In this document: positions 1 through 23,381 of the stretch, in pieces
Layout: each line of letters begins with the position of its first letter
How positions within the stretch are numbered: the first letter of the stretch is position 1
Assembly (NCBI GenBank): GCA_965227835.1
Contig: OZ245768.1
Coordinates: forward strand, 1,350,001-1,382,000
Length of the DNA stretch: 32,000 nt
Direction: 5' to 3'
Source of the DNA: Candidatus Saccharimonadota bacterium
GTDB lineage: Bacteria; Patescibacteriota; Gracilibacteria; BD1-5; UBA6164
Made by a program: the position numbers and the translations under genes
The notes under the pieces: generated by a model
What the model was told of the DNA's origin: nothing
Database searches by the model: none
The model's input: the letters and a program-made list of their open reading frames with translations, nothing else

Positions 1-102
1 AGAATAGGCACCAATTCTGATTCTGATATTTTGTTTGAAACCCAACTGGAAAGCTTGGATCGTTTAGCGAAAAGAGCTTCTCAATTTAAGAAAGAAAGGT
101 GA
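1..102 (+). CDS. 3' end of an unidentified upstream gene (partial). It stops at TGA 100-102 under the standard code and would run on to TAA 130-132 under table 25.
   Basis: Frame 1 is open from the window edge for 33 codons (...LESLDRLAKRASQFKKER) and then hits TGA inside the AAAGGTGA ribosome-binding site of the next gene. No family recognised. Confidence 0.3.
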   Translation, partial: RIGTNSDSDILFETQLESLDRLAKRASQFKKER

Positions 103-107
103 AAATT

Positions 108-1316
108 ATGGAAACTAACCAAACAAAAGTAACAGCTAGAACTTCAAGTGAACTTGATAGTTTATTTGGAACATCAGATCCAAATCAGCTCCCTGAAGTC
201 ATTGAAGATACACCATCAAGTTTGACCCTAGTGAATCATAGTGAAATTAGTCCAGAAGCATCGCAAAGGGTAAGTGCTATAGTAGAGAACTTTAACTTAA
301 GTGATACCAACTTGGTACTTATGTATGGTTCTGAACCTCAGCGTAAACTATCAGTATTTCTTGATTCCTTACTTGAAGGAATAAAGGTCAAAGATGTAGA
401 TGTTGCTGGAGAGATGGTTTTACAAATGTCTGATGGCATTAATTTAATGCAGCTATCAAAAGTAAAAGCTTCAATAAACAGCAAAAAAACTAGTGGCTTT
501 ATGGTTGGTCTTATTAATTCAATTGGACTTGGTAAGAACTATATTAAAGCTTTCTACGAAAGCCAAAAATTGGTTACATCAAAAATGGATAAGATTGAGG
601 ATATGGCCCAAAATCAAATATCTATTATTGCTGAAAGAAACGAAAAACTAGATAGCTTGGTTGAACATTCTATACAGCAGGTTCTTGAACTTGAAGTGTT
701 TATACTTGCTGGAGAAGAAATTCTTGAGTTAGCTAAGCTACAGTATGCTGAAAAGGCCCAAGAAGTGAAAAAAAGTAGGAATCAGCTGGAAGCTTCAAAT
801 CTTCGTGATATGGGTAGACAGCTGGCAGCTTTTGATGTAAGGCTTCTTCGTCTGAAAGAAGCATATGTTGAAGCTGGCTCTGCAACTATTGAGCGAATTC
901 GACAAATTCAGGAAGCTGGCAAGATTGAGATTCAAGGTCTCAATGATGGTATACTATTCACTATTCCAAAAATCAAGAAAGCCATTTTGCAAGTAGCTGC
1001 TTTAAATGATATTAAAACAGCACAAGAAGCTCGTAAGAAAATGGATGAAATTGATGCTCAATTGGATGCAGAATTATCAGAATCTACAAATTCTATTCAT
1101 ACTGCAGCAAAAAAGTCTCAAGGTGATGCTTTGGATCGAGTTCGTAGGCTTGAAGGAGTCATCTCTAATATAGAAAAATCAATTCAAGATAGTATCAGAA
1201 TTGAGAAATCTACTCAAGAAATGCGAGAAGAAGCTGGTAAAACGTTAGTTGGTTTAAAAGACCGTATTACTGATACTCTAAGTGAAACTAACCTAAAAGC
1301 CGCAGGAGCTGTATAA
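108..1316 (+). CDS. telA: Toxic-anion-resistance protein, TelA/YaaN family
   Basis: Uninterrupted standard-code ORF (track 99..1316). ATG at 108 lies 6 nt after AAAGGTG. Length (~400 aa), the coiled-coil-rich layout and the N-terminal segment (MYGSEPQRKLSVFLDSLL...DVDVAGEMVLQM) resemble B. subtilis YaaN/TelA as I recall it. No in-frame TGA; TAA stop. Confidence 0.75.
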   Translation: METNQTKVTARTSSELDSLFGTSDPNQLPEVIEDTPSSLTLVNHSEISPEASQRVSAIVENFNLSDTNLVLMYGSEPQRKLSVFLDSLLEGIKVKDVDVAGEMVLQMSDGINLMQLSKVKASINSKKTSGFMVGLINSIGLGKNYIKAFYESQKLVTSKMDKIEDMAQNQISIIAERNEKLDSLVEHSIQQVLELEVFILAGEEILELAKLQYAEKAQEVKKSRNQLEASNLRDMGRQLAAFDVRLLRLKEAYVEAGSATIERIRQIQEAGKIEIQGLNDGILFTIPKIKKAILQVAALNDIKTAQEARKKMDEIDAQLDAELSESTNSIHTAAKKSQGDALDRVRRLEGVISNIEKSIQDSIRIEKSTQEMREEAGKTLVGLKDRITDTLSETNLKAAGAV

Positions 1317-1325
1317 CTCAATATA

Positions 1326-1354
1326 AGCCCTACATCTTATCTAGATGTAGGGCT
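1326..1354 (+). terminator. 12-bp GC-containing hairpin after the telA-like gene (no clear U-tract)
   Basis: AGCCCTACATCT (1326-1337) pairs perfectly with AGATGTAGGGCT (1343-1354) around a 5-nt loop. The downstream sequence is not T-rich, so this may be an attenuating or stabilising hairpin rather than a full terminator. Confidence 0.4.
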
Positions 1355-1391
1355 CATCAAAACTTTATTAAAATTCTTTTAGGAGAAAAAC

Positions 1392-2438
1392 ATGAAATTT
1401 AAAATCCTTAGTATAATTGCTTTATTGTTTTCATCCATAGCAATTCCAGTTCAAGCTGCCGAACAGTGCGATATAGCTTGGTCTAGATACACAGGATGGG
1501 AACCTTTAGGATATATTGAAGATTCAGGGATTGCCGATAGATGGGGAGAAAAAGAAGGTGTAAACCTAAGCTTCTCATATGTTGGTGAATACATAGAAAG
1601 TGTGAATCTTTATAATGCCGGAACCTATCAAGGTGTGGCCATTACAACTATGGATGCACTAACTATCCCTGCTGTTGGAGGAGTAGACACGACTGTGATA
1701 ATAATTGGAGACTTTTCTAATGGTAATGATGCTATTCTTATCAAAGATGAAGATAAATCAATTAACGATTTGAGAGACAAAGAAATAATTCTTGTAGAAC
1801 TTTCTGTAAGTCATTATTTACTTGCTCGCGCTCTTGGAAAAGTCGGTATGTCTGAAAGGGATATTAATTTGGTAAATACTTCAGATACAGCTATTCCTTC
1901 CTTAATTGCTACAGCAAATCAGGGAGATACTTTTGTTACATGGAATCCTATTGTAATGAAAGGTCTCCAGCAACCTGGCATTTCAAAAATATTTGACTCT
2001 TCTGAGATACCCGGTGAGATCATTGATACTATTGTAGTTAATACTGATGTAAGTGAAAATTGCAAAAGAGCAGTTGCAGGAGCTTGGTATGAAGCTATGG
2101 GTACTATGTCTAGTTCTGGAAATGACCATAACCAGATGATTTCATTTATGGCTGAACAGTCTGGTGGAACTGTGCCCGAATTCAAATCTCAACTGAAAAC
2201 TACCAGAATGTTTTATGACCCTGCTGAAGCTATAAGGTTTATTAGAAGTCCAGAACTTCAAAAAACTATGGAATTTGTGGCAAGATTCAGCTTTGATCAT
2301 GGAATTTATGGTGATGGTGCTCCTGATGAAAAATTTGTTGGAATACAATACCCATCAGGAGTTTGGGGAAATGAAGATTATGTCCGTCTCCGCTTTGATC
2401 CAACCTATATGGAACTTGCGGCAGAAGGTAAGCTCTAA
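1392..2438 (+). CDS. ABC transporter periplasmic/extracytoplasmic substrate-binding protein, NMT1/THI5-like (NitT/TauT family)
   Basis: Signal peptide MKFKILSIIALLFSSIAIPVQA|AE. The core (WSRYTGWEPLGY...MDALTIPAVGGVDTTVIIIGDFSNGNDAILIK) is typical of nitrate/sulfonate/taurine-type binding proteins. As I recall it, it resembles the subgroup annotated as urea-carboxylase-associated, but this is unverified. AGGAG sits 6 nt upstream of the ATG. No in-frame TGA; TAA stop. Confidence 0.7.
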   Translation: MKFKILSIIALLFSSIAIPVQAAEQCDIAWSRYTGWEPLGYIEDSGIADRWGEKEGVNLSFSYVGEYIESVNLYNAGTYQGVAITTMDALTIPAVGGVDTTVIIIGDFSNGNDAILIKDEDKSINDLRDKEIILVELSVSHYLLARALGKVGMSERDINLVNTSDTAIPSLIATANQGDTFVTWNPIVMKGLQQPGISKIFDSSEIPGEIIDTIVVNTDVSENCKRAVAGAWYEAMGTMSSSGNDHNQMISFMAEQSGGTVPEFKSQLKTTRMFYDPAEAIRFIRSPELQKTMEFVARFSFDHGIYGDGAPDEKFVGIQYPSGVWGNEDYVRLRFDPTYMELAAEGKL

Positions 2439-2454
2439 ATTTCCAATATTTTTA

Positions 2455-2484
2455 ATAGCTAGGAGGATTAATCCTCCTAGCTAT
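2455..2484. promoter_or_regulatory. Perfect 30-bp palindrome (intercistronic hairpin) between the binding-protein and permease genes
   Basis: ATAGCTAGGAGGATTAATCCTCCTAGCTAT equals its own reverse complement. It contains two SD-like AGGAGG/CCTCCT arms and lies just upstream of the real SD AAGGAGG (2494-2500). Confidence 0.7.
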
Positions 2485-2506
2485 AATTTTATAAAGGAGG
2501 TCCTAT

Positions 2507-3367
2507 ATGGCCAATTCTAATCTTTTTAAGAGGGGTAGCAATAACCCCTATATGAGGAATCAAATATTTGGGCTCCATGCTGAACCTTCAAAAACACTTA
2601 AAATAATACTTGGAGCAGTTTTATTTGTTGTACTTATATTAATTTATTCTCACTTTTCTGATGCTAGACTTGCTATAAACCCAAATGATAAGATACTACC
2701 AAGCTTTGGTCAGATTTGGGATGCTTTTTGGAGAATGGCTACCCAAGAAAACAAAAGAACAGGAGAAATACTTCTATGGTCGGATACAATTGCAAGTATG
2801 AAAAGGTTGCTAATAGCCGTATTTATTTCTGCTGTTGTAGGTTTATTGCTAGGTGTCAATATAGGTGCATTTAAAGCTCTGAAATACTCCACTTTACCTT
2901 TTATTACTACACTATCTATCATTCCACCTCTATCAATACTGCCAATTTTGTTTATTACTTTTGGTACAGGCGAGGCAGCAAAAATTATTCTTATTATTTT
3001 TGGTACTGTATTTTTGATAATTAGAGATATAACTTTGGCTACTGAAGCTATACCTAAAGAACAAATAACCAAAGCATTAACTATGGGAGCTTCACAATTA
3101 GGAGTGGTATATCGTGTATTACTTCCTCAAATTGTCCCAAAGCTATTAAATACTATAATGATATGTCTTGGTGGAGCTTGGCTTTTTTTAATAGCAGCAG
3201 AATCAATAGTTGCTACTGAAGGCTTGGGTTATAGAATATTTTTGGTTCGAAGATATCTGTCTATGGATATAATAATAGCATATGTTATGTGGATAACATT
3301 CATTGGCTTTGTTATGAATTATATTTTCCGTATAATTATCAAAAAATTCTATCCTTGGTATAAATAA
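2507..3367 (+). CDS. ABC transporter permease (NitT/TauT family, SsuC/TauC/NrtB-like)
   Basis: Multi-pass hydrophobic protein with the EAA-loop region (...ALTMGASQLGVVYRVLLPQIVPKL...). AAGGAGG sits 6 nt upstream. No in-frame TGA; TAA stop. Confidence 0.8.
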   Translation: MANSNLFKRGSNNPYMRNQIFGLHAEPSKTLKIILGAVLFVVLILIYSHFSDARLAINPNDKILPSFGQIWDAFWRMATQENKRTGEILLWSDTIASMKRLLIAVFISAVVGLLLGVNIGAFKALKYSTLPFITTLSIIPPLSILPILFITFGTGEAAKIILIIFGTVFLIIRDITLATEAIPKEQITKALTMGASQLGVVYRVLLPQIVPKLLNTIMICLGGAWLFLIAAESIVATEGLGYRIFLVRRYLSMDIIIAYVMWITFIGFVMNYIFRIIIKKFYPWYK

Positions 3368-3381
3368 ACTAGGAGGTAAAA

Positions 3382-4293
3382 ATGCAAGAACTTAGAGAAA
3401 CTAGCATAATTCATTTTCAAGGTGTATATCAGGGGTATGAAGGTGATCCTACTTACAATGACATAGAAGCTTCTGTGAAATCAGGGACGAAAATAATACT
3501 TGATAGAATAGATTTATCTATAAGACCTGGAGCTTTTGTGACTGTAGTTGGTCCCTCTGGCTGTGGTAAATCTACACTTCTACGTCTTGTGATTGGTCAA
3601 GAATCCCCTTTGGGAGGAGATCTTTTTTTTGAAAACTCCCCCATAAAAACCCCCAACTTAGATAGAGCTGTTGTTTATCAGAACTATTCTTTGTTTCCAA
3701 ACCTAACTGTTTTAGATAATGTAGTTTCATCTTTTAGACTTCAAGGAATACCATTTTTATGGTCCATAAAAAAAAGAGAATATATTGATGAAGCTATGTC
3801 TTTTTTAAAACGAGCTGGTATTGAAAATCATGCCAAAAAATATCCTCATGAGCTTTCTGGTGGACAGAAGCAAAGAGTTGCAATAGTGCAATCTCTTATT
3901 CAAAAACCAAAGGTTTTATGCATGGATGAACCTTTTTCTGCATTAGATCCCGGAACAAGGGAAGATATGCAGATGTTTCTTTTGGAATTATGGGAAGAGA
4001 TAGGTATAACTGTCTTATTCGTTACTCATGATTTAGAAGAAGCAGCTTACTTGGGAACAAGGTTAATAGCACTTTCACAATACTACAATCAGTCCGAGGA
4101 GAGAGACTATGGTGGTGCGAAGGTGGTATGTGATCATTCTTTGAACAATAGAGGATTAAGTCCTAGTGTGAAGAAAACTCCTGAGTTTGGTGAATTCTTA
4201 GAAAATGTTAGAAAAGAGGCTTTTGATCCAAGTTATTTACAGCATGTATCAGATTTCTCTTTGAATCATGAGAGATCCTTTCAAGCTTTATAG
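3382..4293 (+). CDS. ABC transporter ATP-binding protein (SsuB/TauB/NrtD-like)
   Basis: Walker A GPSGCGKST, Q-loop YQNYSLFP, signature LSGGQKQR, Walker B VLCMDEPFSALD, H-loop VTHD. AGGAGGT sits upstream. No in-frame TGA; TAG stop. Confidence 0.9.
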   Translation: MQELRETSIIHFQGVYQGYEGDPTYNDIEASVKSGTKIILDRIDLSIRPGAFVTVVGPSGCGKSTLLRLVIGQESPLGGDLFFENSPIKTPNLDRAVVYQNYSLFPNLTVLDNVVSSFRLQGIPFLWSIKKREYIDEAMSFLKRAGIENHAKKYPHELSGGQKQRVAIVQSLIQKPKVLCMDEPFSALDPGTREDMQMFLLELWEEIGITVLFVTHDLEEAAYLGTRLIALSQYYNQSEERDYGGAKVVCDHSLNNRGLSPSVKKTPEFGEFLENVRKEAFDPSYLQHVSDFSLNHERSFQAL

Positions 4294-4375
4294 ATATTAG
4301 ACACAAAACTTTTATTTCCAAAGGTTTTCTTTAATCTATAGCTTGAAGTTTACAAAACTAAAAAAAGGTTGATGA

Positions 4376-4432
4376 AAGCCCCCCTATTTAAATCCGATAA
4401 AATCGGATTTAAATAGGGGGGCTTGTTTTTTT
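4376..4432 (+). terminator. Very strong rho-independent terminator at the right edge of the TGA-free segment
   Basis: About 22-23 bp perfect stem (AGCCCCCCTATTTAAATCCGAT / ATCGGATTTAAATAGGGGGGCT) with a 3-nt loop, followed by TTGTTTTTTT. Confidence 0.85.
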
Positions 4433-4694
4433 GGAGGAAATTTAGAGTTTTAGTTTTTTTAATCTTTAAAACCAAAAATAATCTCAGTTATATTTAGCGA
4501 TAATTAACTCAAAACTAAACTTATTCAGAAATATATGGATTTTTCAAAAAACCTTCTTGCTTTTTGTTAAATTAATTTTAATATAAAAAAGTAAAAAATT
4601 TATAAACTTTGAATTTAAAAATTCATTCTTCTTTGTTGCAAAATTAATTTTTTGCTTTAGATTACAAAAAATATTATTTTAATCAAACTAAAAA

Positions 4695-6644
4695 ATGCAT
4701 ACAAAATACCAAGCAAATGCAAGAAAAATAAAAATAGCTATATTTTTCATCCTGTGCACTTTATTATTTAGCTCCTGTGTTAAAACCAAAGAGGAAGTTG
4801 AACAAATCTCAGAAAAACAAGATTTTTTTATACAAACAAAAAAGCTATCTTCTTTTACATGAAGCTATGAAATCAAAAAAACAGGAAAAATAAAACCAAG
4901 CCAAGAAATAATACTAACATCAAAAGTTTCTGGTAGAGTGTGAAGTATAAATTCAGACTTTTGACAAAATGTATATGCAGGACAAAATCTAGTTAATTTA
5001 GTAGATAATGTTTCAAATTATGGATTAAACTTAGAAAAATCTTCACTATCTCTTGAAAGCTCCAAACTTAGCTATGACCAAAATAAAATAAGTTTGGACA
5101 AACAAGTAGAAGATGCTGAGATAGCCTTAGCTAGAGAAAAAAAAGATCATGAAATATTAGAAAAGAAAATAAAAGAAGATATAGAACTAGCAAAAATAAA
5201 TTTAGATAATTCTCTTTCTTGAAATAATGATTCAGTATGATTCACATCAAAAGCTCAATTAGACTATGAAAATTTATTAAAAAGCAACCAAGAACAAATA
5301 AAGACTTTTGAATCTACCTCAAAAAATGATTATCTATCACTAAAAAACTCATTTGTAGATGTAATAGATTTTTCTGATGGAATACTTTGAATTACAAATT
5401 TAAATAAAAGTAGAAACGATAGCTTCGAAGATTATCTATGAGTAAAAGATTCTATTTTCTTAAAAGAAACAGAAAGAGAATTTATAGATCTTATGAAATT
5501 CAAAGAAGATACCTTTGATTCTATATGAAAAGATGATTTAAACATAGAAAATCTAGACTCTTTTTTCAATGTGGCAATTCAATCCTACACCAAAATAATA
5601 GCCTTTCTAGACTCTTTAGAGAAAGTGCTTGATAACTCTGTTGAAAATATTTACTTTACTAGAACAGAAATAGATAGCTATAAAACACAAACAAATTCCT
5701 ATCAAACAGAACTTCAATCAAAATACAATTCTCTTTTGTCTTTTAGATCAAGTGTTAGAGAATTTTTAAATACATATAGTGATGAAGAAGAAATACTTAG
5801 AAAAAGTTTAGAAATATCAGGAGATACTGCTAGAGTTAGTTACAATAAAACTGTGCTTGATTGACAAAAATCTATAAACGATAGTCTTTTATCATTAAAA
5901 ACTGCTGAACTTAATTTACAAAATGCAGAAAAAAATAGGGAAGTTGTCTTAAAACAACTTCAAAACTCTATAGACCTAGCAGAAAATTCTAGATCACTAT
6001 CATATAAAGAATATCAAAAACTATCAATATCTTCTCCTATAAATTGAGTTGTATCCGATATATTAGTTGATATTTGAGAAGATGTTACTCTTTGAACCCC
6101 ATTAATTAAGTTATCATCTCTTTGAACTAATGAGCTCGAAGTTTGATTTAGTTTCTCTGAAGTTGATTATATAAAACCATGAGATATAGTAAAAGTTGAT
6201 TATTTATGAAGTACTTTGAGCTGAACTATTAACTCTATTTCAAAAATAGCTGATGAAAATCTAAATTATAAATCAAGAATTAGTGTAGATTCTCCTGTAA
6301 GTATTTCTTGAAATATAGTTGATGTTTTTGTCCCAATAACCCTATCTAAAAGGTTGATAGAGCTAAAAGATGTCAAAGTTAAATCAAATTGACTTTGAGA
6401 AGTAAATGTACTTTGAGCATATTCTTCTTCAGATAATGAAAAACAAAGCCTAAATGTAGAAAAAGTATTATTAGAACTTTGAACATTTTATTGAGAAAAG
6501 GTAGAAATACTATCTTGTATAGATTTAAATGATGAAATTTGTTCTGATTTAGAAATAGTAATAAGTGATTTATCTAGGTTTGATGAAACTAAATTTAGTC
6601 TAAAGATGAAAAACAGTCCATTGGATGATAATTTGGAAAACTAA
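4695..6644 (+). CDS. Efflux membrane-fusion/periplasmic-adaptor protein (HlyD family), probable lipoprotein; table 25
   Basis: No TAA/TAG over 649 codons when TGA is sense (checked by hand); track ORF 5571..5864 is an in-frame fragment. The N-terminus AIFFILCTLLFSSC is lipobox-like. Two lipoyl half-motifs (ILTSKVSGRVGSI...AGQNLVNL and ISSPINGVVSDILVDIGEDVTLGTPLIKL) flank a long coiled coil. Confidence 0.75.
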
Positions 6645-6668
6645 ATATTACATAATTAAAAATAAAAT

Positions 6669-7505
6669 ATGATTAAACCAAGTAGTCGTAAAGATCTTTA
6701 TTCATTGGATAGTATTGTGAAGGCCTTTGAATCAATAAAAGAAGAAAAAGGTATAGACAAACTTTTAAATAAAGTAAAAAATCAAATATTTTGAAGTGAA
6801 ATTAAAGGAGAAGACTTAGAAGACTTCAAATGTTTTGTTAGGAAGTTTTATTCTCTTTATTACTTAATGAAAGATAAATTTTTTCATATATATAGAAAAA
6901 ATACTTGAGAAAGATACTTTGAACACCTAAGATGAGTTGTGCATAATGTATTAGAATTTTCAAACCCAAATATAGACAAGATATTAATTGCTTTAGCTCA
7001 CGATAGTATAGAGGATACAGATATAGATTTTGATTTTTTGAAAATATCAATTTGAGCAAAAAATTCTTTAGCCGTACAAGCGATAAGTAAACCTTCCTTT
7101 AAAAATTACAAATTTGTAGATTGAGCCGAAAATACAGACAAAGAAGCTAAAAAGCTTAGAAATGATGAATACTTCAAACATTTGAAGTCTTTTGAAGCTA
7201 TGAAAACTCATATTAAAAGTTTAGCCTTAGAAAAATCAGTAGAATTGTCAGATGAAGAAATTATAGAAATAACCCAAAATACATTTGATGTAAAATTTGC
7301 TGATAGAATACATAATCTATCTACACAATGGAATTCTAATGACTTGTATAATGTAAAAAGAAAGGTAGAAGAAACAAGAGAATTCTTTTTAGATATAGCA
7401 AAAGAGCTAAATAGTGATGTTTATGATAAACTTCAATCTCTTATTTTAGAACTTGAAATAAGAGTCCTTACAACTCAGAAAATGGCAGAAACATTATCTG
7501 CATAA
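6669..7505 (+). CDS. HD-domain protein, RelA/SpoT-type (p)ppGpp hydrolase-like; table 25
   Basis: The code-25 ORF includes track fragment 7182..7505. Motifs RYFEHLRGV, LAHDSIEDT and VKFADRIHNLST match the HD hydrolase domain signatures (HD..EDT; KLADRLHN). There is no synthetase domain (278 aa). Confidence 0.6.
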
Positions 7506-7571
7506 GTTTATGAAAATATTTCTAAAAGCTACATTTATTTAAAAAATCTTTACTTTTATACACATAACAAG

Positions 7572-7600
7572 TTTACACTTCTAACCATAATCTATAAAAT
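7572..7600 (+). promoter_or_regulatory. Candidate sigma70-like promoter for the RND gene (TTTACA-N17-TAAAAT)
   Basis: The hexamers were read directly. The -10 ends about 10 nt before ATG 7610, which implies a very short leader. AT-rich background makes chance matches likely. Confidence 0.3.
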
Positions 7601-7609
7601 ATAATAAAT

Positions 7610-10600
7610 ATGATAAAACAATGATTCTTTTATTTCTGGCTTAAAAACATAAAAACAAGTTTTTTACTTATAGCTCTTATAGTCTCCTCTTGAATCTTTT
7701 CTATTATTTCTATACCAAAAGAATCAAGTCCAGAAATAAAATTTTGAATAATAAATATAAATGTATCCTATCCATGAGTTAACCCTGTTGATATAGATAA
7801 TTTAATTACCGATGAAATAGAAAAGGAGATAGAAAACCTAGAAGGGATCAAAAATATAACATCAACTTCAAGTATTTGAAGTTCATCAATTACGGTGGAA
7901 CTAGATACTTGAGTTAATACTAGAAATTTATTAACAGACATAAAAGATAAAGTTGATAGTATCAATTTTCCTGAAGAAGCTGAGGACCCTATTGTAAGTG
8001 ATGTCAGCTCCAATAGCACATTACTTTATGAAGCCTTAATATATTGAGATGCTGATGCATTTGATGATTTTTCTTTGATGCAAAAAGCTAAATCTTTAGT
8101 TACAAAACTTGATGATACATCATGAATTTCAAGTATAGATATATGATGATTAGATGATACTTTGTGATCTACATCTTGATGATGAAGTAGTGATTATGAT
8201 ATAAAGGTGCTTCTTTCAAAATCAAAAGTAGAACTTTTGTGATTGTCTATAACAGATATATCAAACAAAATAAAATGATACAACAAAGATTTCCCTATAT
8301 GAAACTATAGAGTTTGAGATCTAAGTTATGATTTCAGGTTTGAATGAGAATTATCTTCATTAAATGATTTAAAAAATGTAGTAATCTCTGATAATGGAAC
8401 ATCAAAGATAAAATTATCAGATATAGCAGAATTCAAGTTGGAATATGATATAAACACCATAAAAAGGCTATGATTTTATTGAGTTTCATGACAAAATTAT
8501 ATTTCCTTAGTATTCAATAAAGCAGAGGATTCTAATGTATTTAAATCTTCTGGTTCATCCAAAAAAGTTTTAGAAAATATACTAAAAAATGATATAGAAT
8601 TTGAATGATTGAGTGTAAAATATTCGAAAGATATGGGAGAAACTATAATTGAAGATTATGAATCTCTCTGAAAAACAGCTCTTACAACTATAGTTTTAGT
8701 TTTCATCACTATACTCTTTTTTGTTGGTTTTAGAGAAGGTATAATAGCTTCTATTTTGGTTCCTTTGGCTTTTCTTATAACTTTTATAGTGCTTGACTAT
8801 ATGGGATCAACTATGAATTTTCTAACCAATTTTTCTCTTGTTCTAACTCTTTGAATCGCTATAGATACTGTTATAGTGATTGTGGAGTGAGCAAGTGAAA
8901 GAATGAAGTTAGGTTTTTCTAAAGAATCATCTATTATGCTTGCTATTAGAGATTTCAGATCACCTCTTATAAGCTGAACTTCTACTACTTTAGTAGCATT
9001 TCTTCCTATGATATTTCTACCATGAATAATTGGTAAATTTCTATCTTTTATCCCAATAACAGTTTTTATCACATTGATAGCAGCACTGTTTTTGTCTCTA
9101 AGTATCGCTTCAGCTTTATTTGTCACACTTCAAAAACCAAGTAAGACCTTTCATAGGGAAGAAAAAGTTGAGAAAAATATGAGAGAAGATGATTTAAAAA
9201 TACTTCAAAAAGATAGAGAATTTAAAATAGCTAAAGATGAACAATCTTTATCAATAAGGGAAAAAATATTACAAGGACTTTGAAAAATATATGAAAAAAC
9301 TCTAAACAAAGTATTTTCCAGACTTATTTATAAACTATCTTTTATTTTTATACCTATAATAGTTTTAGTATTAAGTCTTGTAACACTATCACCAAAAATA
9401 GGGTTTATACTTTTCCCTCAAACAGATGAATGAGTTATGAATATAGATATAAAATGAAAAACTGGTGTTTCAAAAGATTTTATGGAGCAATATATAGAAG
9501 ATATAGACAATATTCTTTCAAATATTCCAGAAATAAGAGTTTATTATACTACAGTTGAAGATAATACTATATCTGTTTATATAGATCTTTTTAAAAAAGC
9601 ACAAAGGGAAAAACAATGATTATTATCAGCCTATTCTTTAGAAACTAAGCTAGATGAACAATTTTCATATTTGAGATCTAATTGACTAGATCTTAGTGTA
9701 GCGGCTCAAAAAGGATGACCTCCTACAGGTTCAGCTGTATGAATAAAATTAGTTGCAGAAAATGCATCGGATTTTGATTCCTTAAAAAAGGTTTCTGAAG
9801 ATTTTGAGTTATTTTTAAAAGGTATAGCTTGAACAAAAAATGTGAATTCAAGTTCTAGTGATACACCATGACAATTTGTTTTTGAGTTTGATAAACAAAA
9901 ACTATCTAGTTTGTGATTAACACAAAGTGATATACTAAATGAGATATATTTTTATACCAATTGAATAAAATCATGATCTATAAAACAAGGTTCTCAAGAC
10001 AACGAAATAGTTGTATCTTTCAAAGAATTTGAAGATTTTTTAAACCCAGAAGATGTTTTAAATTTAGTGGTAAGCACTAGAGCTTGAAAAGTAAGACTTG
10101 GGGATTTTGTAGAATTTGATTTTAAAAAATCTGTTAGTAGTATATGAAGAATTGATTGAAAAGTAGTAATATCTATATGATCAGAGGTAAAGGAATGAGT
10201 TTTACCTACAGAAATTCAACCTAAACTTGAAGAATTTGCAGAAAGCTATAGCTATCCCCAAAACATATCTTTTATGAAATCTTGAGAAAGTGAAGAAAAC
10301 AAAGATTTGATAGTATCTACATTTAAATCTTTACTTATAGCAATGTTTTTGATATTCTCTATTTTAGTTTTTCAATTCAATAGCTTTATACAACCACTTA
10401 TAGTTTTATATTCAATAGTTCTGGCTCTTTTGGGTGTTAATATATGACTTTATGCAACTTGAAATCCTTATTCTATGCCTTTTGCAATTTGATTTATAGC
10501 CCTTACTTGAGTTGTTGTAAACGATGCAATCATATTGATAGATAGAATAAACAAGCAAATACAAAATAAGCTTAAAAATTCAAAAACCTCGGATATAAAT

Positions 10601-10840
10601 TATTTAGAACAAATAATAATTGCTTGAAAATCGAGATTACAACCTATAATAGTTACTACAGTTACAACTATTTTTGGTGTATTACCACTTGCTTTACAAG
10701 ATGAATTTTGGGCAGGTCTTGGATTCACTATAATATTTTGACTTTTTGTTTGAAGTTTTATGACACTTGTCGTTATTCCTATCTTGTATCAAATACTTGT
10801 TTTGGGTAGAAAAAAGAAAAAAAAGACTCATGTTTCTTAA
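7610..10840 (+). CDS. RND-superfamily efflux transporter (AcrB/AcrD/AcrF family); table 25
   Basis: I walked all 1076 codons: there is no TAA/TAG, and dozens of TGA. Track ORF 9074..9283 is an in-frame fragment. Hallmarks are the N-terminal TM followed by a large extracytoplasmic domain, LGIAIDTVIVIVEGASERM and LTGVVVNDAIILIDRIN (the conserved TM4/TM10-type motifs), and a two-fold repeat architecture. Confidence 0.9.
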
Positions 10841-10899
10841 AAAAAGGCTGAAAAGTATTTTTAAATCATTGGTAATTTTATTTCCTTAAAAACACTCTA

Positions 10900-11991
10900 A
10901 TGAAAATTACAATTATAATATTAATTTTAATCGCTTGATTTTGGTTTTTTTATGATATTGAAAAAAACAAATCTATAGAAGATGCTAAGAAAGAGATGTG
11001 ATTTGCAAAAGATAGCGACCAAAATTTAGAAAATCAACCTACTAGCAATGACCAAGAAGAAACAAAAGAAAATATTTCAAATAAATCAAAACCAAGCTAT
11101 AGTGTATCTAAACTTGATAATAGAAACTATATAGAAATAGATGATTTGTCTTCTAAAGTTGAGAATCTTACAGAGAGCATAAAAATTAGCTGAAAAATTC
11201 TTGATGAAAATGTGGAAAAAATTATTGTTAATTTTAAAAATACATCATCTAGCTATCCAAATGATAGATATATACTTAAAAATTTCAAAAAATCAGATAA
11301 AACATTTGAGTATAATGCAGAATCTAGACTTTATCACAATCTTGATTACGGAGAAAATATATATTTGATAGAAGCATATATTTGAGATGAGGTTTCAAGA
11401 GTTCAATTAACTATAAAAATACCAAAAGATTTTTGAGAAAATGAAGAAAAAGAAAACTATATACCTATAACAGACAAAATAACATATGATAAAAAAGTAA
11501 TTTGAAGTTGAGATGAGGTACTTTATTTAGGTATGCCTATTTCAAATACTTTTTGAAGACCTTTAAACTTATGAAACTGAGAAATAACATATTCAAATAT
11601 TTCTGGTCTTGTGATAAAAAAAGACAACTTTATAAAAAATGATATTAGAGATGACAATGTATGGAAAACAGATTCTAGTTGATATTTAAACAAAAACTTA
11701 GACTCTCCTTTTATATACTGGAACTCTTTTAGAAATATAGATTTAGATAATCCAAGCTATGGTTCTAGCTTTTATGTACTTAGAAAAAAAGATGATAAAT
11801 ATGTTTATGAAAAATACTATTTTGATTTTAGACACAATTTGAAATGAATTTTAGAGATTGAAAAATTTGACTCACTATGAGGTAGTGTATCTGTGGAAAT
11901 GAGTGAGTTAAATTGAGAACTTAGAAATAAAAACAAGGATTTTGAAATAGTAAAAATAACAGATTCTCTTTTTAGGGAGATAGTTAGGTAG
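10900..11991 (+). CDS. Hypothetical N-terminally membrane-anchored protein; table 25
   Basis: 363-codon ORF with TGA as sense, ending in TAG. It has an N-terminal TM (MKITIIILILIAGFWFF). No family recognised. Confidence 0.55.
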
Positions 11992-12053
11992 TTTATATCT
12001 TTCAATAATAATCTTTTGTTTTTTAAAGCTTTATTATTTTAAATTAAAAACTT

Positions 12054-12758
12054 ATGAGAGTACTACTTAAAATATCTTGAGAAGCATTAGCTTGAGATGA
12101 ACAGATATGAATAGATTATAATATGTTAAACAATATATGTGATACTATAGTAGAAATAGTTAAAAAAGGTGTTGAAATAGCTTTAGTTGTAGGAGCATGA
12201 AATTATGTAAGATGAGCAGATTTAGAAAAAATAGGTATAGATAGATGTAATGCCGATAATATGGGTATGCTTGCTGTCAATATGAATGCTATAGCTCTAG
12301 CAGATATTCTTGGTAAAAAAAATCTTGAAGTTAAGCAGGTAAGTTCATTTTCTATTGATTGAATAAGTGATAGATTTAATAAACCAAAAACAATAAAAAA
12401 CCTACAAAAATGATATGTTGTTGTATTTTGATGATGAACTTGAAATCCTTATTTTACAACCGATAGTGCTTGAGTTTTGAGAGCATTAGAGATAGAAGCT
12501 GATATGATGGTAAAAGCTACAAAAGTAAATTGAGTATATGATAAAGATCCAGAAAAACACAGTGATGCTAAACTTATAAAAAAAGCTAATTATGATGAGG
12601 TAATTACCAATGACCTAAGAGTTATGGATCCAACTGCAATAACTTTGGCTAAAGAAAATAATTTGGTTTTAAAAGTTGTTAGTATGTATAAAAAATGAGC
12701 TGTTTTAAAATCTATTTTTTGAGAAGATGAGGGAACAACTATTAGTAGAAAATCTTAA
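12054..12758 (+). CDS. pyrH: UMP kinase; table 25
   Basis: MRVLLKISGEAL..., [50 protein letters not shown]. Four of the invariant Gly in GGGTGNP are TGA (12429-12437 and 12441-12443). Confidence 0.92.
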
Positions 12759-12987
12759 AATTTATTCATTAAAAAGTAAAAAAATTAGTATTGATTTAGA
12801 TTTTTCTTGAGAGCAAAAAACAAAAGAAAATATTCAATGATTGTGAGAAAATGTATATGAAAGTGAAAATTGTGATTATATAATGTGATGTCATAAAATA
12901 GGTAATGTTGTATCTGGAGTATCTTGATTTGATAAACATACATTATGTCTTTTTAAATCAATTGACCCAAAACTTGAAGAGAACTAA
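12727..12987 (+). CDS. Small hypothetical ORF overlapping the pyrH 3' end by 32 nt; table 25
   Basis: 86 codons are open with TGA as sense. No recognisable family, so it may be spurious. Confidence 0.3.
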
Positions 12988-13038
12988 ATATTTTTTATAC
13001 TCTCTAAATGTATCTAACCAAGATTTTTAGCAAAATTT

Positions 13039-13066
13039 TTGACATAAGCCTAGTTTTTTATAGAAT
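13039..13066 (+). promoter_or_regulatory. Candidate promoter upstream of rpmH (TTGACA-N16-TAGAAT)
   Basis: Consensus -35 at 13039-13044 and a -10-like TAGAAT at 13061-13066, about 115 nt upstream of the rpmH ATG. Confidence 0.4.
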
Positions 13067-13182
13067 ACATCTACAAAAATTTTTTGAGTAAAAATTAGCA
13101 AAAAAGGATTATTTATTGTCTATATGTCAATTTTTCCACTCCTTTATTAAATAAAAGAATTAATTATTAAGTTAGCAAAACA

Positions 13183-13428
13183 ATGTTAGGAAAATTAAAA
13201 AAAAGAAAAAGACTAAGAGTTCATGGTTTTTTAAAAAGAAGCTCTAGTGTTTCTGGTAGAAAAATTTTAAAAAACAGAAGAAGAAAAGGTAGACACGAAC
13301 TTACAGTTTCTTATCCAAAAAGATATCAAGAAATTAACTGAAAACCAAGAATGCATATAATTGCTTGAGGTAAAGCTAAAAAAACACCTTTTGATGGTAA
13401 AGGTAATTATATTAAGAAAAAAAAATAG
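13183..13428 (+). CDS. rpmH: Ribosomal protein L34 with a C-terminal extension; table 25
   Basis: The core KRKRLRVHGFLKRSSSVSGRKILKNRRRKGRHELTVS matches L34. The frame continues through TGA at 13339-13341 and 13363-13365 to TAG 13426-13428, giving 81 aa against the usual ~45. Confidence 0.85.
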
Positions 13429-13437
13429 TATTTTTCT

Positions 13438-13806
13438 ATGATAAGCAAAAAATATAGATTAAAACAAAGAGAAGTTAGAAAGGTTTTAACATCAATAAAA
13501 CCTTTTTTTTCTTATGATTTTGTTTTGAAAACTAAAATAAATAAAAAAGATTTTAACAGATTTGCTATAGTTATATGATCTAAATCCGTTAAAAACAATG
13601 TTATAAGAAACTATTTTAGAAGATTTTTTTACAGATTTATTAAAAAAAGTTATCTATATATAGACTCCTTTAAATCTAAAAACAAATATGATTTAGTGTT
13701 TGTCTTGAAGAAACAAACTAAACTTGATAAATATGATAAAAAAACTATAGTTTCGTTTGAAAATAATTTAGTATTTTTAGAAAAGAAGCTCAGAAATAAT
13801 CTTTAA
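13438..13806 (+). CDS. rnpA: RNase P protein component; table 25
   Basis: Basic 122-aa protein directly after rpmH (KKYRLKQREVRKVL..., RFAIVIGSKSVKNNVIRNYFRRFF). The rpmH-rnpA-yidC synteny is conserved. Confidence 0.8.
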
Positions 13807-13817
13807 AAACAACACCT

Positions 13818-14993
13818 ATGAAAAAAATCCTAGATATAATAATAATATTTTTACTAATATTTTTAATAATATCACTTTTTAATAACGAAAGCTCAAACGA
13901 AAGAAAAAATGATTTCAATATAGTGTTTAAAACTTCAAAGACCTCTTATAATGTACCTGCTTGAGTAAAACTTGAAATTGAGAATAAGACAGATGAAAAA
14001 TTAAAAATAGATATATGCAGGGATTTAGAGATAAAATATATACAAACAGACAGTATTTTAAAATTTGATGAAAACTTTTGTAATTGAAATATTCTAGAAA
14101 TTAATCCTGATATGAAGTCTGAAGTTGATTATTCTAGTGTATATGAGGAATTCAAACAAAAATGAAATTATATAATTAAAAGTGATATAAACTGAGAAAA
14201 ATACTCAAGCTCTTTTGAAATAGAATCAAGGTGAGCATTTACCAAACTATTTATATATTTATTTTATGCTCCAGCATACAATCTAATTATATATTTAAGT
14301 GATATTTTTTCTGGAAACTTTGGTTGGGCAATAGTAGCTATAACTGTAATTATAAGAATATTACTTCTTTGGCCTCAACACAAAATGCTTGTATCTCAAA
14401 AAAAGCTTCAAGAAATTCAACCAAAAATAAAAAAAATACAGGAAGAATTTAAATGAAAACCTCAAATCTTAGGTCAAAAAATGATGGAGTTATACAAAAC
14501 TGAAAAAGTGAACCCTATGGGATCATGTGGATTTCTTCTTATACAAATGCCAATACTTCTTGTTATATATAATATAATACTATATATAGAAGATAAAAGT
14601 AGTGCTTATTATTTATATTGATTTATATCTGGTTTTGATTTATCTTCTATAAACTACATTTTTTACTGAGTAAATCTGCTACAATCAGGAGGAATTACTG
14701 GTTTAATTTTGGCTCTTAGTGTATGAATATTACAATATCTACAAATAAAGCTTTCCTACAAAAATAATCCCATAGCTAAAAATTCAATGATGCTTGAAAA
14801 GAAAAAATGAGCTAAAGATTATAGTAGTATGATGCCAGATCCAGAAACAATGCAGAAATTTATGCTTTATGGGATGCCAGCTATGATTATGGTTTTTACT
14901 TATAGTTTTCCTGCTTGATTATGATTATATTGGGGAATTACTACACTATTTATGATAATACAACAATTGGTAGTAAACAAAAACAAAAAATAG
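13818..14993 (+). CDS. yidC: Membrane protein insertase YidC; table 25
   Basis: 391 codons, checked for TAA/TAG. Motifs are [41 protein letters not shown]...[25 protein letters not shown], and a C-terminal [17 protein letters not shown]. Confidence 0.9.
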
Positions 14994-15016
14994 TCTAGTA
15001 AAAAAAACAATTTATA

Positions 15017-15045
15017 TTGACTTTTATCCTCAAAATATATAGACT
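15017..15045 (+). promoter_or_regulatory. Candidate promoter for the LPXTG gene (TTGACT-N17-TAGACT)
   Basis: The hexamers were read directly, 35 nt upstream of ATG 15080. Confidence 0.3.
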
Positions 15046-15079
15046 ACAACTTGTTTATTATAATTTATAACAATTAAAT

Positions 15080-15766
15080 ATGAAAAAAATTTTCTTCATA
15101 CTATCTGTGCTATTTATTTTTTCTTTAAATACTAGTTACTGATCATACGAAGAAGTGAGTTGTGACGTAGATAGTATTTTTTCTGAAAATTCTTGTAGCT
15201 CTTGTTTTGATTGAGGTGTCAAATCTGAGTGAGACAACCTAGGTCTTTTAACCAATATGTGGGTAAATAGTTCAAATAGTCTTATGTATATGCTTAAGTG
15301 AGAAAACCAGCTTGATTCTTCAGTTGAAATGATACCTTTAAATGGTTCTGCTTGGTCTTATGAACCAACAAAAGATGATTTTTGGGAATACAGCGAAAAT
15401 TTTGAAAAACTTACCCAAAATGAAGGTTTTTATACTCTTGAGCCTTGAAATAGTGTCGATTGGATTCAATCTAAGCTAGGTTATTCTATTAGATTAAATG
15501 AATCTTTAGAAGCATGAGAAAATATAGGACTTTTGAAATATATGTTAAATGTACATATGGACGAAGATTGAATACCTGCCGAATCAACTGTATCTCAAAG
15601 AGAATGTATACTTTTTAAGTCTTCTGGTGAAAGTAATGCTGAGCCAGTTACTCAAAAGGAAGTTTCAAAAAACCTACCCCAAACTTGACCACAAGAAGTT
15701 TTACTTTTATTTCTAGCTTTAATGCTATCAGGTTTATTGTTTTTTGTCTCTAAGAAAAAGTCTTAG
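15080..15766 (+). CDS. Secreted cell-wall-anchored protein with an LPQTG sortase sorting signal; table 25
   Basis: Signal peptide MKKIFFILSVLFIFSLNTSYG. The C-terminus is NLPQTG-PQEVLLLFLALMLSGLLFFV-SKKKS (motif, hydrophobic span, basic tail). The motif Gly is TGA (15686-15688). Confidence 0.75.
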
Positions 15767-15797
15767 GCTTGTAAATAATTATTTATAAATTAAAAAC

Positions 15798-15836
15798 AAA
15801 AAAAGTCTAGTCAAAATGCTAGACTTTTTTTGTTTT
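15798..15836 (+). terminator. Rho-independent terminator after the LPXTG gene
   Basis: AAAAAGTCTAG / CTAGACTTTTT stem with an 8-nt loop and a T-run. Confidence 0.6.
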
Positions 15837-15898
15837 CTTGTGTTACAATTTAGATGTTATTAAAAACGATAATATTTTAGCTTCTAACATAAACTTAT

Positions 15899-20608: not shown

Positions 20609-20636
20609 ATATAAATTAAAGATTGTAATTGTATTG

Positions 20637-20671
20637 AAAACTTCTAGCCTTAAAAAGCTAGAAGTTTTTTT
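20637..20671 (+). terminator. Rho-independent terminator after the Cys-rich protein gene
   Basis: AAAACTTCTAGC / GCTAGAAGTTTT stem with an 8-nt loop and a T-run. Confidence 0.7.
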
Positions 20672-21010
20672 AGTTTGTAATTTTTTGTTTGGGTTTTAGC
20701 TGAAAAGTTAGAGTTCCTTTGAAATATATCTCCTTTTAATTTTTAGTTTTTTACAAAATCTTTTCAAAAAGATTTGATATAAGTTCTAAAAATACTATCA
20801 TCTCTGAATTATTTTTTCATATTTTTTAAATTGTTCTTTAAAATTTAAAGTAAGATTAAATATTGCGAGTTAAAAGTTTGTCATATTTTGCCTTGAAATA
20901 TAGATATTTTTTTATTGGTAGATTTTTGCCTCGTAATATTTTTCAACCAAATACTGATTTTTTGCGAGGGAAAATTAGTATAAATAAACCTAAATAAAGG
21001 AGGTTAAAAA

Positions 21011-23266: not shown

Positions 23267-23294
23267 GTGAAAATTTTTGTGTAATTTATAAACC

Positions 23295-23329
23295 AAAGAG
23301 GCTATCTATCACTAGATAGCCTCTTTTTT
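23295..23329 (+). terminator. Strong rho-independent terminator after the GH19 gene
   Basis: 14-bp perfect stem AAAGAGGCTATCTA / TAGATAGCCTCTTT with a 4-nt loop and a T-run. Confidence 0.85.
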
Positions 23330-23381
23330 AATTTTGATTTATTTAGGAAATTATAGTTAATATATGGAATATTTGTCTTCA

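What the first reader, a model, noticed from the sequence alone, without database searches (positions are those of the whole stretch)
1..4440. TGA-free, Shine-Dalgarno-bearing, GC-richer segment (telA-like gene plus ABC transporter): a candidate island from a standard-code donor
The four consecutive genes (about 1340 codons) contain no in-frame TGA, although neighbouring native genes use TGA for most glycines. All four stop at TAA or TAG. Each is preceded by a canonical SD (AAAGGTG, AGGAG, AAGGAGG, AGGAGGT) 5-7 nt from the ATG. None of about 18 native starts I inspected has a GGAGG-like element; their upstreams are A/T only. Spot counts of G+C are about 45% here against about 20-35% in native lines. 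The hairpins at 1326-1354, 2455-2484 and 4376-4424 are GC-rich, unlike native terminators. Together these argue for recent acquisition across a genetic-code boundary. In a UGA=Gly host, only TAA/TAG-terminated genes would keep their native C-terminus.
Basis: partly seen in the sequence, partly recalled or inferred. Interest (0 to 1): 0.75.

Follow-up and report, generated by a model that had tools for sequence, protein, structure and literature searches.

The report
Standard-code gene island in a Gracilibacterium
A bacterium that reads the stop codon TGA as glycine carries a block of transporter-related genes that clearly came from ordinary-code bacteria, a clean but not unprecedented case of gene transfer across a genetic-code boundary.

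Summary
The window is Candidatus Gracilibacteria DNA in which TGA encodes glycine: 68% of native Gly codons are TGA. The four genes at 108-4293 have 0 TGA among 90 Gly codons (P about 5e-45).

The segment is the 3' half of a conserved eight-gene cluster: NMT1-like, vWA, OmpA-like, a 266-aa protein, TelA, and an ABC substrate-binding protein, permease and ATPase. This cluster is widespread in standard-code bacteria. The transporter proteins are 54-64% identical to versions in standard-code bacteria, the named ones alphaproteobacterial, and only 31-42% identical to those of another Gracilibacterium.

Window bases 1-99 are the tail of the fifth gene. Its ancestral stop is a TGA at 100-102, which this host would read through for 10 codons.

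A second Gracilibacteria MAG carries a divergent copy of the same cluster. It too is GC-richer and free of sense TGA, and it has a TGA stop that fuses permease to ATPase. A GH19 gene at 21011-23266 shows the same signature.

Transfer from a standard-code lineage is well supported. Recency is inferred, and host-like codon usage complicates it.

The parts
1..102 (+). 3' end (33 codons) of the upstream '266-aa family' gene of the operon, plus its donor-code TGA stop at 100-102. In a UGA=Gly host it would be read through as G-K-L-W-K-L-T-K-Q-K to the TAA at 130-132.
   Evidence: A profile of 25 homologs matches positions 246-271 of 272, E=2e-5. The TGA falls where the homologs stop, and 9 of 25 homologs also stop with TGA. 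Sequence read.
97..102 (+). Shine-Dalgarno-like AGGTGA for telA. It overlaps the upstream gene's TGA stop, a translational-coupling layout typical of standard-code operons.
   Evidence: The same stop-inside-SD layout occurs in L090 (TGAGGA) and in the merged L088/L089 contig (TGAGGT).
108..1316 (+). TelA-family protein, 402 aa, stop TAA, 0 TGA among 20 Gly codons.
   Evidence: Pfam PF05816, 86.4 bits against a cutoff of 30. It is 70% identical to P0243 and 38% to the TelA of Gracilibacteria MAG L090. It has no BLAST similarity to the TelA of the proteobacterial operons.
1326..1354 (+). Intercistronic GC-rich hairpin (12 bp) with no T run.
   Evidence: z -4.8.
1392..2438 (+). Periplasmic substrate-binding protein of a NitT/TauT-type ABC importer, with signal peptide. 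SD AGGAG at 1381-1385. 0 TGA among 30 Gly codons.
   Evidence: NCBIfam TIGR03427, 410.8 bits against a cutoff of 333.9. Best non-self hits are 59-65% identical and include Magnetofaba and Rhodospirillaceae. NJ tree.
2455..2484 (+). Intercistronic hairpin (13 bp) after the SBP gene.
   Evidence: z -4.2.
2507..3367 (+). ABC permease (BPD_transp_1). SD AAGGAGGT at 2494-2501. 0 TGA among 18 Gly codons.
   Evidence: It is 59-61% identical to L001/L086 and 33% to L090.
3382..4293 (+). ABC ATPase with Walker A, signature, Walker B and H-loop motifs intact. SD AGGAGGT at 3371-3377. Stop TAG. 0 TGA among 22 Gly codons.
   Evidence: It is 54-60% identical to L001/L086 and 42% to L090.
4376..4433 (+). 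Rho-independent terminator: a 23-bp perfect stem followed by a T run. It marks the right end of the GC-richer segment and occurs only once in the window.
   Evidence: (-39.7 kcal/mol, z -6.6).
4434..4694 (.). AT-rich, native-type spacer between the island and the first TGA-rich native gene (HlyD-type, 4695-6644, 23 TGA among 29 Gly codons). The junction lies here.

Best explanation
Window 1-4433 is the right-hand part of a genomic island in a Candidatus Gracilibacteria chromosome (genetic code 25). The island was acquired horizontally from a bacterium that uses the standard code.

The island is a conserved operon. Only its last five genes fall in the window: the tail of a 266-aa membrane and coiled-coil protein, a TelA-family protein, and a three-component NitT/TauT-type ABC importer (substrate-binding protein, permease, ATPase). 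By analogy with homologous loci, three more genes (NMT1-like, vWA, OmpA-like) are expected just left of the window. That is inference.

The genes were written for a TGA=stop translation system, so they contain no sense TGA. They therefore translate into the correct proteins in the new host, and TAA/TAG stops still work. The one visible TGA stop (100-102) would be decoded as Gly, adding 10 residues and running ribosomes 22 nt into telA.

The Shine-Dalgarno sites, intercistronic hairpins and strong terminator are donor-type signals carried along. The host's own genes start without an SD, so these sites are probably dispensable there (inference).

Most likely function: uptake of a small nitrogen- or sulfur-containing solute, coupled to a TelA-type envelope or stress module. 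The substrate is unknown.

Sense TGA codons have not begun to appear. I therefore take the acquisition to be young relative to the host's mutational turnover, from an AT-rich donor of about 32-35% GC.
For: Shown.
- The host uses code 25 and is a Gracilibacterium.
- 0 of 90 Gly codons are TGA, against a native fraction of 0.68.
- 4 of 4 island genes have an SD, against 0 of 18 native starts.
- GC steps down at about 4430.
- The operon order 266aa-TelA-SBP-permease-ATPase recurs in standard-code loci: L001, L086 and L087 (organisms not named), L006 (Rhodospirillaceae), L008, L012 and L013 (Desulfobacterota), L009 (Nitrospirota), L011 (Burkholderiaceae), and others.
- The transporter proteins are 54-64% identical to those loci. 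The SBP nests with Rhodospirillaceae and Magnetofaba sequences in an NJ tree.
- The upstream fragment matches the C-terminus of the 266-aa family (E=2e-5), with the TGA at the family's stop position.
- GC1, GC2 and GC3 of the island (0.48/0.36/0.225) each imply the same equilibrium genome GC of 32-35%, so no amelioration needs to be invoked.
- All four ORFs are intact with catalytic motifs present.

Integration is real rather than an artefact.
- The genome is a single 1,489,121-bp contig in NCBI/ENA.
- A second TGA-free, SD-bearing gene (GH19, 21011-23266) has TGA-rich native genes on both sides.
- An unrelated Gracilibacteria contig (L090) has the same operon embedded between TGA-rich native genes. 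There it has no sense TGA in the seven annotated island genes (about 176 Gly codons), and the one in-frame TGA sits at the permease stop.
- All 17 genes of a 23-kb stretch of a relative (L003) are TGA-rich and lack an SD.
Against: - No close donor is known. The best outside matches are 64% (SBP) and 70% (TelA) in a collection of about 15 billion proteins. The transfer is therefore not demonstrably recent.
- Synonymous usage outside Gly is already closer to this host than to another Gracilibacterium (RSCU r 0.91 against 0.83; 0 of 300 bootstraps reversed). The same holds reciprocally for the L090 island. This hints at residence time.
- TelA and the transporter have different nearest relatives. 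TelA is closest to the AT-rich merged L088/L089 contig, whose SBP is only 31% identical to the window's. The island's history therefore includes recombination.
- No integrase, tRNA gene or flanking repeat is visible in the window. The left junction lies outside it.
- Reads could not be mapped.
Confidence: 0.8

Rival explanations
1. The operon is not a recent arrival. It belongs to a gene pool that has long resided in, or shuttles between, code-25 Gracilibacteria and standard-code bacteria, possibly on code-11-compatible mobile elements. Selection keeps it free of sense TGA.
For: - Two Gracilibacteria that differ in genomic context carry versions of the same eight-gene operon, both without sense TGA: 0 of 90 Gly codons here and 0 of about 176 in the seven annotated L090 genes.
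- Each island's synonymous usage matches its own host better than the other host.
- The L090 island partly follows the local strand-specific A3/T3 bias: 0.43, against 0.34 for co-oriented native genes and 0.50-0.60 for the comparison operons (L001, L087, the merged L088/L089 contig).
- The sampled relatives of the window SBP are 41-68% GC while the island is 35.5%.
- Phages of Gracilibacteria without in-frame TGA are described in PMC10746230.
Against: - The operons keep TGA as a stop, so they are standard-code rather than code-neutral.
- The TelA and SBP trees do not group the two Gracilibacteria copies. The standard-code L092 (57% GC) lies between them for TelA, and the SBPs are only 31% identical.
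- The codon-position GC values fit a plain AT-rich donor.
- No mobile-element genes were seen, and viral-contig scans were essentially negative.
- The A3/T3 match amounts to roughly one degree of freedom per island.
Confidence: 0.12
2. Assembly or binning artefact: DNA of a standard-code organism was wrongly joined to a Gracilibacteria contig near 4.4 kb.
For: - The composition and coding signals switch abruptly at 4430-4440.
- The island's SBP exists only once in the protein collection, whereas the native DNA has an independent 97.8% identical contig, L002, which stops short of the junction at 5693.
- Reads could not be checked.
Against: - The contig is a single 1.49-Mb sequence.
- The window holds a second foreign-type gene with native DNA on both sides, which would need two more misjoins within 2.7 kb.
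- L090 shows the same operon embedded between native genes in an unrelated assembly.
- The island's codon usage is unusually close to the host's.
Confidence: 0.05
3. Native Gracilibacteria genes that lack TGA by chance, or because of their amino-acid composition.
For: One native gene, atpF (26460-26936), also has no TGA.
Against: - atpF has no glycine at all. The four island genes have 90 Gly codons, none of them TGA (P about 5e-45).
- The island genes also have SD sites, higher GC at all three codon positions, 33% CGN Arg codons against 4% in native genes, and nearest homologs in standard-code bacteria.
Confidence: 0.01

Closest known systems
Horizontally acquired genes in code-25 CPR bacteria (e.g. 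126 HGT genes inferred in Vampirococcus lugosii, PMC8080830)
   Same: Genes were acquired by a UGA=Gly Gracilibacteria/Absconditabacteria-type genome from donors in other phyla. That paper also raises the idea that UGA stops of foreign genes would be read through with Gly insertion.
   Different: Here the acquisition is visible directly in raw sequence as a contiguous operon with a triple signature: no sense TGA, SD sites and higher GC. It also includes a concrete read-through case, the TGA at 100-102. The Vampirococcus HGT set was defined by single-gene phylogenies, and the passages I read do not describe such a signature.
Code-11-compatible phages predicted to infect Gracilibacteria/Absconditabacteria (Liu et al. 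2023, PMC10746230)
   Same: DNA associated with code-25 hosts that lacks in-frame TGA and, where TGA is a stop, has another stop close behind. Such DNA can be expressed under either code.
   Different: The segment here is chromosomal cargo, a transporter and TelA operon, not a phage. No phage hallmark genes occur in the window, and scans of viral contigs found no TelA relative and only one 42% SBP relative. In that study, integrated prophages of these hosts were TGA-rich, unlike this island.
Conserved NMT1-like / vWA / OmpA-like / 266-aa / TelA / SBP / permease / ATPase cluster of standard-code bacteria (loci L001, L006-L013, L018, L086, L087, L092)
   Same: The order and orientation of the last five genes are the same. 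The SBP, permease and ATPase are 54-64% identical to L001/L086. The 266-aa tail and its stop position match.
   Different: The window's TelA is of a second, rarer type (48 cluster representatives at E<=1e-30 among 1.84 billion). That type is shared with L092, L090 and the merged L088/L089 contig and is not BLAST-similar to the common TelA. The window has no ninth gene (about 201 aa) after the ATPase. The first three genes cannot be seen. I found no publication describing this cluster.
TIGR03427 'putative urea ABC transporter substrate-binding protein' systems linked to urea carboxylase
   Same: The SBP scores above the curated cutoff (410.8 against 333.9 bits), and the permease and ATPase belong to the NitT/TauT (taurine, sulfonate, nitrate) group.
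   Different: No urea carboxylase or allophanate hydrolase gene is nearby. Loci without the TelA module (e.g. Vibrio, Alcanivorax) have ATPases only 40-46% identical to the window's and form a separate branch. The substrate assignment therefore does not transfer.

Membership tests
Horizontally acquired genomic island | Composition and coding signals that differ from the resident genome | tested here: met
   GC 0.33-0.37 against a native 0.19-0.33. 0 of 90 Gly codons are TGA against a native fraction of 0.68. SD at 4 of 4 starts against 0 of 18. CGN Arg codons 33% against 4%.
Horizontally acquired genomic island | Nearest homologs lie in unrelated lineages (phylogenetic incongruence) | tested here: met
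   The SBP, permease and ATPase are closest to versions in standard-code bacteria, the named ones alphaproteobacterial (54-64%). They are 31-42% identical to the other Gracilibacteria copy. None of the 80 best genome loci is a code-25 organism. The trees are NJ only, without support values.
Horizontally acquired genomic island | Absent from the syntenic position in related genomes | tested here: inconclusive
   The one relative examined (L003/L004, AcrB 68% identical) has hlyD-acrB preceded by unrelated TGA-rich genes. Synteny there is poor overall.
Horizontally acquired genomic island | Mobility hallmarks at the borders (tRNA gene, integrase, direct repeats) | tested here: not met
   The window has no tRNA gene and no Rfam hit, and the terminal hairpin is unique. 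The left border lies outside the window, so this is only half tested.
NitT/TauT-type ABC importer (TIGR03427-type SBP) | SBP above the curated family cutoff, plus a BPD_transp_1 permease and an ABC ATPase in one operon | tested here: met
   TIGR03427 410.8 bits (cutoff 333.9). PF00528 71.6 bits. PF00005 108.1 bits. Walker A, signature, Walker B and H-loop motifs are present.
NitT/TauT-type ABC importer (TIGR03427-type SBP) | Genomic association with urea carboxylase or allophanate hydrolase (the basis of the 'urea' name) | tested here: not met
   No such gene occurs in the window or in the TelA-linked homologous loci.
TelA (PF05816) toxic-anion-resistance family | Full-length match to the family profile above the gathering score | tested here: met
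   86.4 bits against 30, covering profile positions 2-331 of 332. A role in tellurite resistance is not testable here.
Conserved eight-gene TelA/vWA/OmpA/ABC cluster | Gene order 266aa-TelA-SBP-permease-ATPase | tested here: met
Conserved eight-gene TelA/vWA/OmpA/ABC cluster | Upstream NMT1-like, vWA and OmpA-like genes | not testable with these tools
   They would lie left of window base 1. The source genome could not be retrieved.
Code-11-compatible mobile elements of Gracilibacteria (PMC10746230) | No in-frame TGA; TGA stops backed up by another stop nearby | tested here: met
   No sense TGA. The TGA at 100-102 is followed by a TAA 10 codons later.
Code-11-compatible mobile elements of Gracilibacteria (PMC10746230) | Phage or plasmid hallmark genes | tested here: not met
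   None occur in the window. Viral-contig scans were negative or marginal.

The most novel reading that the evidence does not exclude
This TelA/vWA/OmpA/ABC operon is a long-term passenger that circulates between UGA=Gly Gracilibacteria and standard-code bacteria, perhaps their hosts or prey. Selection for cross-code transferability keeps it free of sense TGA. This would explain why two different Gracilibacteria carry it, each with host-like synonymous codon usage but not one TGA glycine codon among about 266.
Probability: 0.12. Interest if true: 0.8.

Novelty: new member of a known kind. Interest (0 to 1): 0.45.

Why it matters
Code reassignment is often discussed as a firewall against gene flow. 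This locus shows what an inbound crossing looks like in the sequence.

- Sense codons survive intact.
- TAA/TAG stops survive.
- TGA stops become glycine and extend or fuse proteins: +10 residues here, and a permease-ATPase fusion in L090.
- Donor translation signals persist in a host that does not use them.

The per-gene TGA/Gly ratio works as a simple detector and rough clock for foreign genes in code-25 genomes. In this window it flags the island and a GH19 gene at zero, and an asparaginase at an intermediate 4 of 21.

The locus also adds a transporter and stress module to the short list of functions that these reduced, host-dependent bacteria import.

Tried and rejected
- Source genome. 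I tried to fetch the source genome to see the left flank. Exact look-ups of the window proteins and of P0001 failed. A genome-contig scan with TelA found nothing.
- Independent assembly of the junction. L002 is an independent contig, 97.8% identical to the window, but it starts at 5693. The SBP has no second high-identity copy. The metagenome scan returned only a known standard-code contig.
- Look-up of P0245. This might have shown a window-type TelA and SBP on one 4976-bp contig, but it failed and used the last look-up.
- Mobile-element signs. The window has no tRNA gene or Rfam hit. No convincing flanking repeats surround the GH19 gene. The terminator hairpin is not a repeated element. Phage and viral searches were negative or marginal.
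- 'Mosaic unique to this genome'. Rejected, because L092 (standard code, 57% GC) also pairs the window-type TelA with a proteobacterial-type SBP.
- 'Stop-codon filter'. Four TAA/TAG stops in an AT-rich donor is unremarkable, and the fifth gene has a TGA stop.
- TGA=Trp (code 4). Rejected, because TGA aligns with conserved Gly. The public translation does use Trp.
- Literature. One search found no description of the eight-gene cluster.

Full report
**Host and code.** With TAA/TAG as the only stops, the window resolves into long, mostly co-oriented ORFs full of in-frame TGA. In the ATP synthase alpha subunit, the 28 TGA codons align with conserved glycines of solved structures, for example GRGQRELIIGDRQTGKT and PPGREAYPGDVFYLHS. 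TGA is therefore Gly (code 25), not Trp. The native AcrB-type protein has its best named hits in Candidatus Gracilibacteria. The same genome exists publicly as a single 1,489,121-bp contig. I could not retrieve it.

**The observation.**
- *Genes.* The four genes are telA 108-1316, a substrate-binding protein 1392-2438, a permease 2507-3367 and an ATPase 3382-4293.
- *TGA.* They hold 90 glycine codons and no TGA. The 17 pooled native genes use TGA for 295 of 435 glycines. Per-gene P is 1e-9 to 2e-15, and jointly about 5e-45.
- *Stops.* They are TAA, TAA, TAA and TAG.
- *Shine-Dalgarno sites.* Each start has an SD match of 5-8 nt. None of 18 native starts has more than 3 nt, and most have no G in the 21 nt upstream.
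- *GC.* GC is 0.33-0.37, against 0.19-0.33 in native genes.
- *Hairpins.* The three hairpins are real, and the last is a strong terminator.

**What the segment is.** Homologs of the SBP sit in a conserved cluster: an NMT1-like protein of about 585 aa, a vWA protein, an OmpA-like protein, a 266-aa protein, TelA, SBP, permease and ATPase. The cluster occurs in many standard-code bacteria, including Rhodospirillaceae, Desulfobacterota, Nitrospirota, Acidobacteriota, Burkholderiaceae and Gammaproteobacteria, with GC from 39 to 68%.
- The window's SBP, permease and ATPase are 54-64% identical to these.
- The SBP groups with Rhodospirillaceae and Magnetofaba sequences in an NJ tree.
- Loci that have only the transporter (Vibrio, Alcanivorax and others) are a more distant branch.

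**The left edge.** Window bases 1-99 translate to RIGTNSDSDILFETQLESLDRLAKRASQFKKER. This matches the last 26 positions of a profile of the 266-aa family (E=2e-5). The next codon, 100-102, is TGA, at the position where the homologs stop; 9 of 25 of them also stop with TGA.
- The island therefore runs off the window to the left.
- It carries a donor-code stop, which the host would read as Gly. That extends the protein by 10 residues to the TAA at 130-132 and overlaps the telA start at 108.
- This TGA lies inside telA's SD (AGGTGA). The same coupling layout is seen at TGA stops in L090 (TGAGGA) and in the merged L088/L089 contig (TGAGGT).

**TelA has a different history.** It matches Pfam TelA but has no BLAST similarity to the well-conserved TelA of the proteobacterial clusters, which are 45-55% identical to one another. 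Its subfamily is rare: 48 representatives at E<=1e-30 among 1.84 billion.
- The closest relative, at 70%, is on two overlapping 3-kb ENA contigs (merged length 4587 bp, GC 36%). That sequence has no in-frame TGA, has SD sites, and its 275-aa gene ends in TGA.
- L092, a 57% GC standard-code groundwater contig, pairs this TelA type with a proteobacterial-type SBP. The combination in the window is therefore not unique.

**A second Gracilibacterium.** P0247 is 38% identical to the window's TelA and lies on a 42-kb contig of a Gracilibacteria MAG (L090). There the whole eight-gene cluster, plus a pilin-like gene, occupies about 4935-14399.
- Its GC is 0.31-0.38, against 0.21-0.32 in the flanking genes.
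- The seven annotated genes of the cluster contain about 176 Gly codons and no sense TGA.
- Most of the neighbouring genes (mutS, eamA, holA, lgt, rhomboid and others) are TGA-rich. Two of them, the 490-aa gene and the glucosaminidase, are TGA-poor.
- Its only in-frame TGA is the permease stop. Under code 25 this fuses permease and ATPase into the annotated 589-aa protein.
- The genomic context differs from the window's.
- The two Gracilibacteria copies are not each other's closest relatives. I read this as separate acquisitions. It also shows independently that such operons do integrate into code-25 chromosomes.

**More of the same in the window.** The GH19 chitinase-like lipoprotein gene at 21011-23266 has 81 Gly codons and no TGA, the SD AAGGAGGT, 40% GC and its own terminator. 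TGA-rich native genes lie on both sides. The asparaginase gene has 4 TGA among 21 Gly codons (P=6e-6) and no SD. All 17 genes in a 23-kb stretch of a relative are TGA-rich and lack an SD.

**Timing.**
- *For a young arrival from an AT-rich donor.* GC1, GC2 and GC3 of the island each imply a genome of about 32-35% GC, so an AT-rich donor explains the composition without amelioration. Zero TGA then means little time in the host.
- *Against a young arrival.* Synonymous usage outside Gly is closer to this host than to the other Gracilibacterium (r 0.91 against 0.83; 0 of 300 bootstraps reversed), and reciprocally for L090. The L090 island also leans toward the local strand-specific A3/T3 bias. No relative closer than 64-70% exists in the collection.
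- *Judgement.* I cannot exclude long residence with selection against sense TGA. I rate it at about 0.12.

**Known context.** HGT into code-25 CPR bacteria and the read-through idea are published (PMC8080830). So are TGA-free, code-11-compatible phages of these hosts (PMC10746230). This locus is a clear new example rather than a new kind.

**Not done.** Read mapping, the left junction, supported phylogenies and any experiment.

Noticed in passing
window 21011-23266 (+), flanks 20609-21010 and 23267-23381: A second foreign-type gene: a 751-aa lipoprotein with a 15-nt tandem repeat encoding about 14 GDDGS units and a C-terminal GH19 chitinase-type domain. It has 0 TGA among 81 Gly codons, the SD AAGGAGGT, GC 0.40 and its own terminator at 23295-23326. 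TGA-rich native genes lie on both sides. Its codon usage resembles that of the 1-4433 island (r 0.94).
   Followed up: partly
window 29125-30162 (+): An L-asparaginase gene sits between atpA and atpG. It has only 4 TGA among 21 Gly codons (P=6e-6 against the native 0.68), no SD and GC 0.30. It may be an older acquisition that is part-way to host-type glycine coding.
   Followed up: partly
window 7610-10840; public protein P0122: The public translation of this genome's AcrB-type protein has Trp at all 53 TGA positions. The gene call in the collection therefore used code 4 although the organism is code 25.
   Followed up: yes
L090 12630-14399 (Gracilibacteria MAG GCA_028688895.1, JAQTXG010000014.1): The permease gene of the acquired operon ends in TGA, in frame with the ATPase gene. 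Under code 25 the two are annotated as one 589-aa fusion. The identical sequence in L091 was called as two genes.
   Followed up: yes
L090 11229-11565; L091 1367-1693: A type IV pilin-like gene (N_methyl motif, FTLIELMIV) is inserted between telA and the SBP gene in the other Gracilibacterium's copy of the operon. It is absent from the window.
   Followed up: no
L017 (Saccharibacteria MAG, 9.2-kb contig) and L047 (Moraniibacteriota MAG, 5.3-kb contig): Short contigs binned to other CPR phyla carry the proteobacterial-type operon at 43-46% GC. This is either misbinning or further acquisitions by CPR bacteria.
   Followed up: no
L090: + strand versus - strand native genes: Third-position T/(A+T) in four-fold codon families shows strong strand asymmetry: 0.34 on one strand and 0.61 on the other. 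The acquired operon sits at 0.43.
   Followed up: partly
window 5693-17536 versus L002 (ENA ERZ25074195, 11.9-kb contig at 3.8x coverage): An independent contig from another sample is 97.8% identical to the native part of the window. A closely related strain or population therefore exists elsewhere. The contig ends 1.2 kb short of the island junction.
   Followed up: yes
window 4431-4437: A stray TGGAGGA follows the terminator directly, with no ORF behind it. It may be a remnant of the SD of the ninth operon gene (about 201 aa in L001/L087), which is missing here.
   Followed up: no
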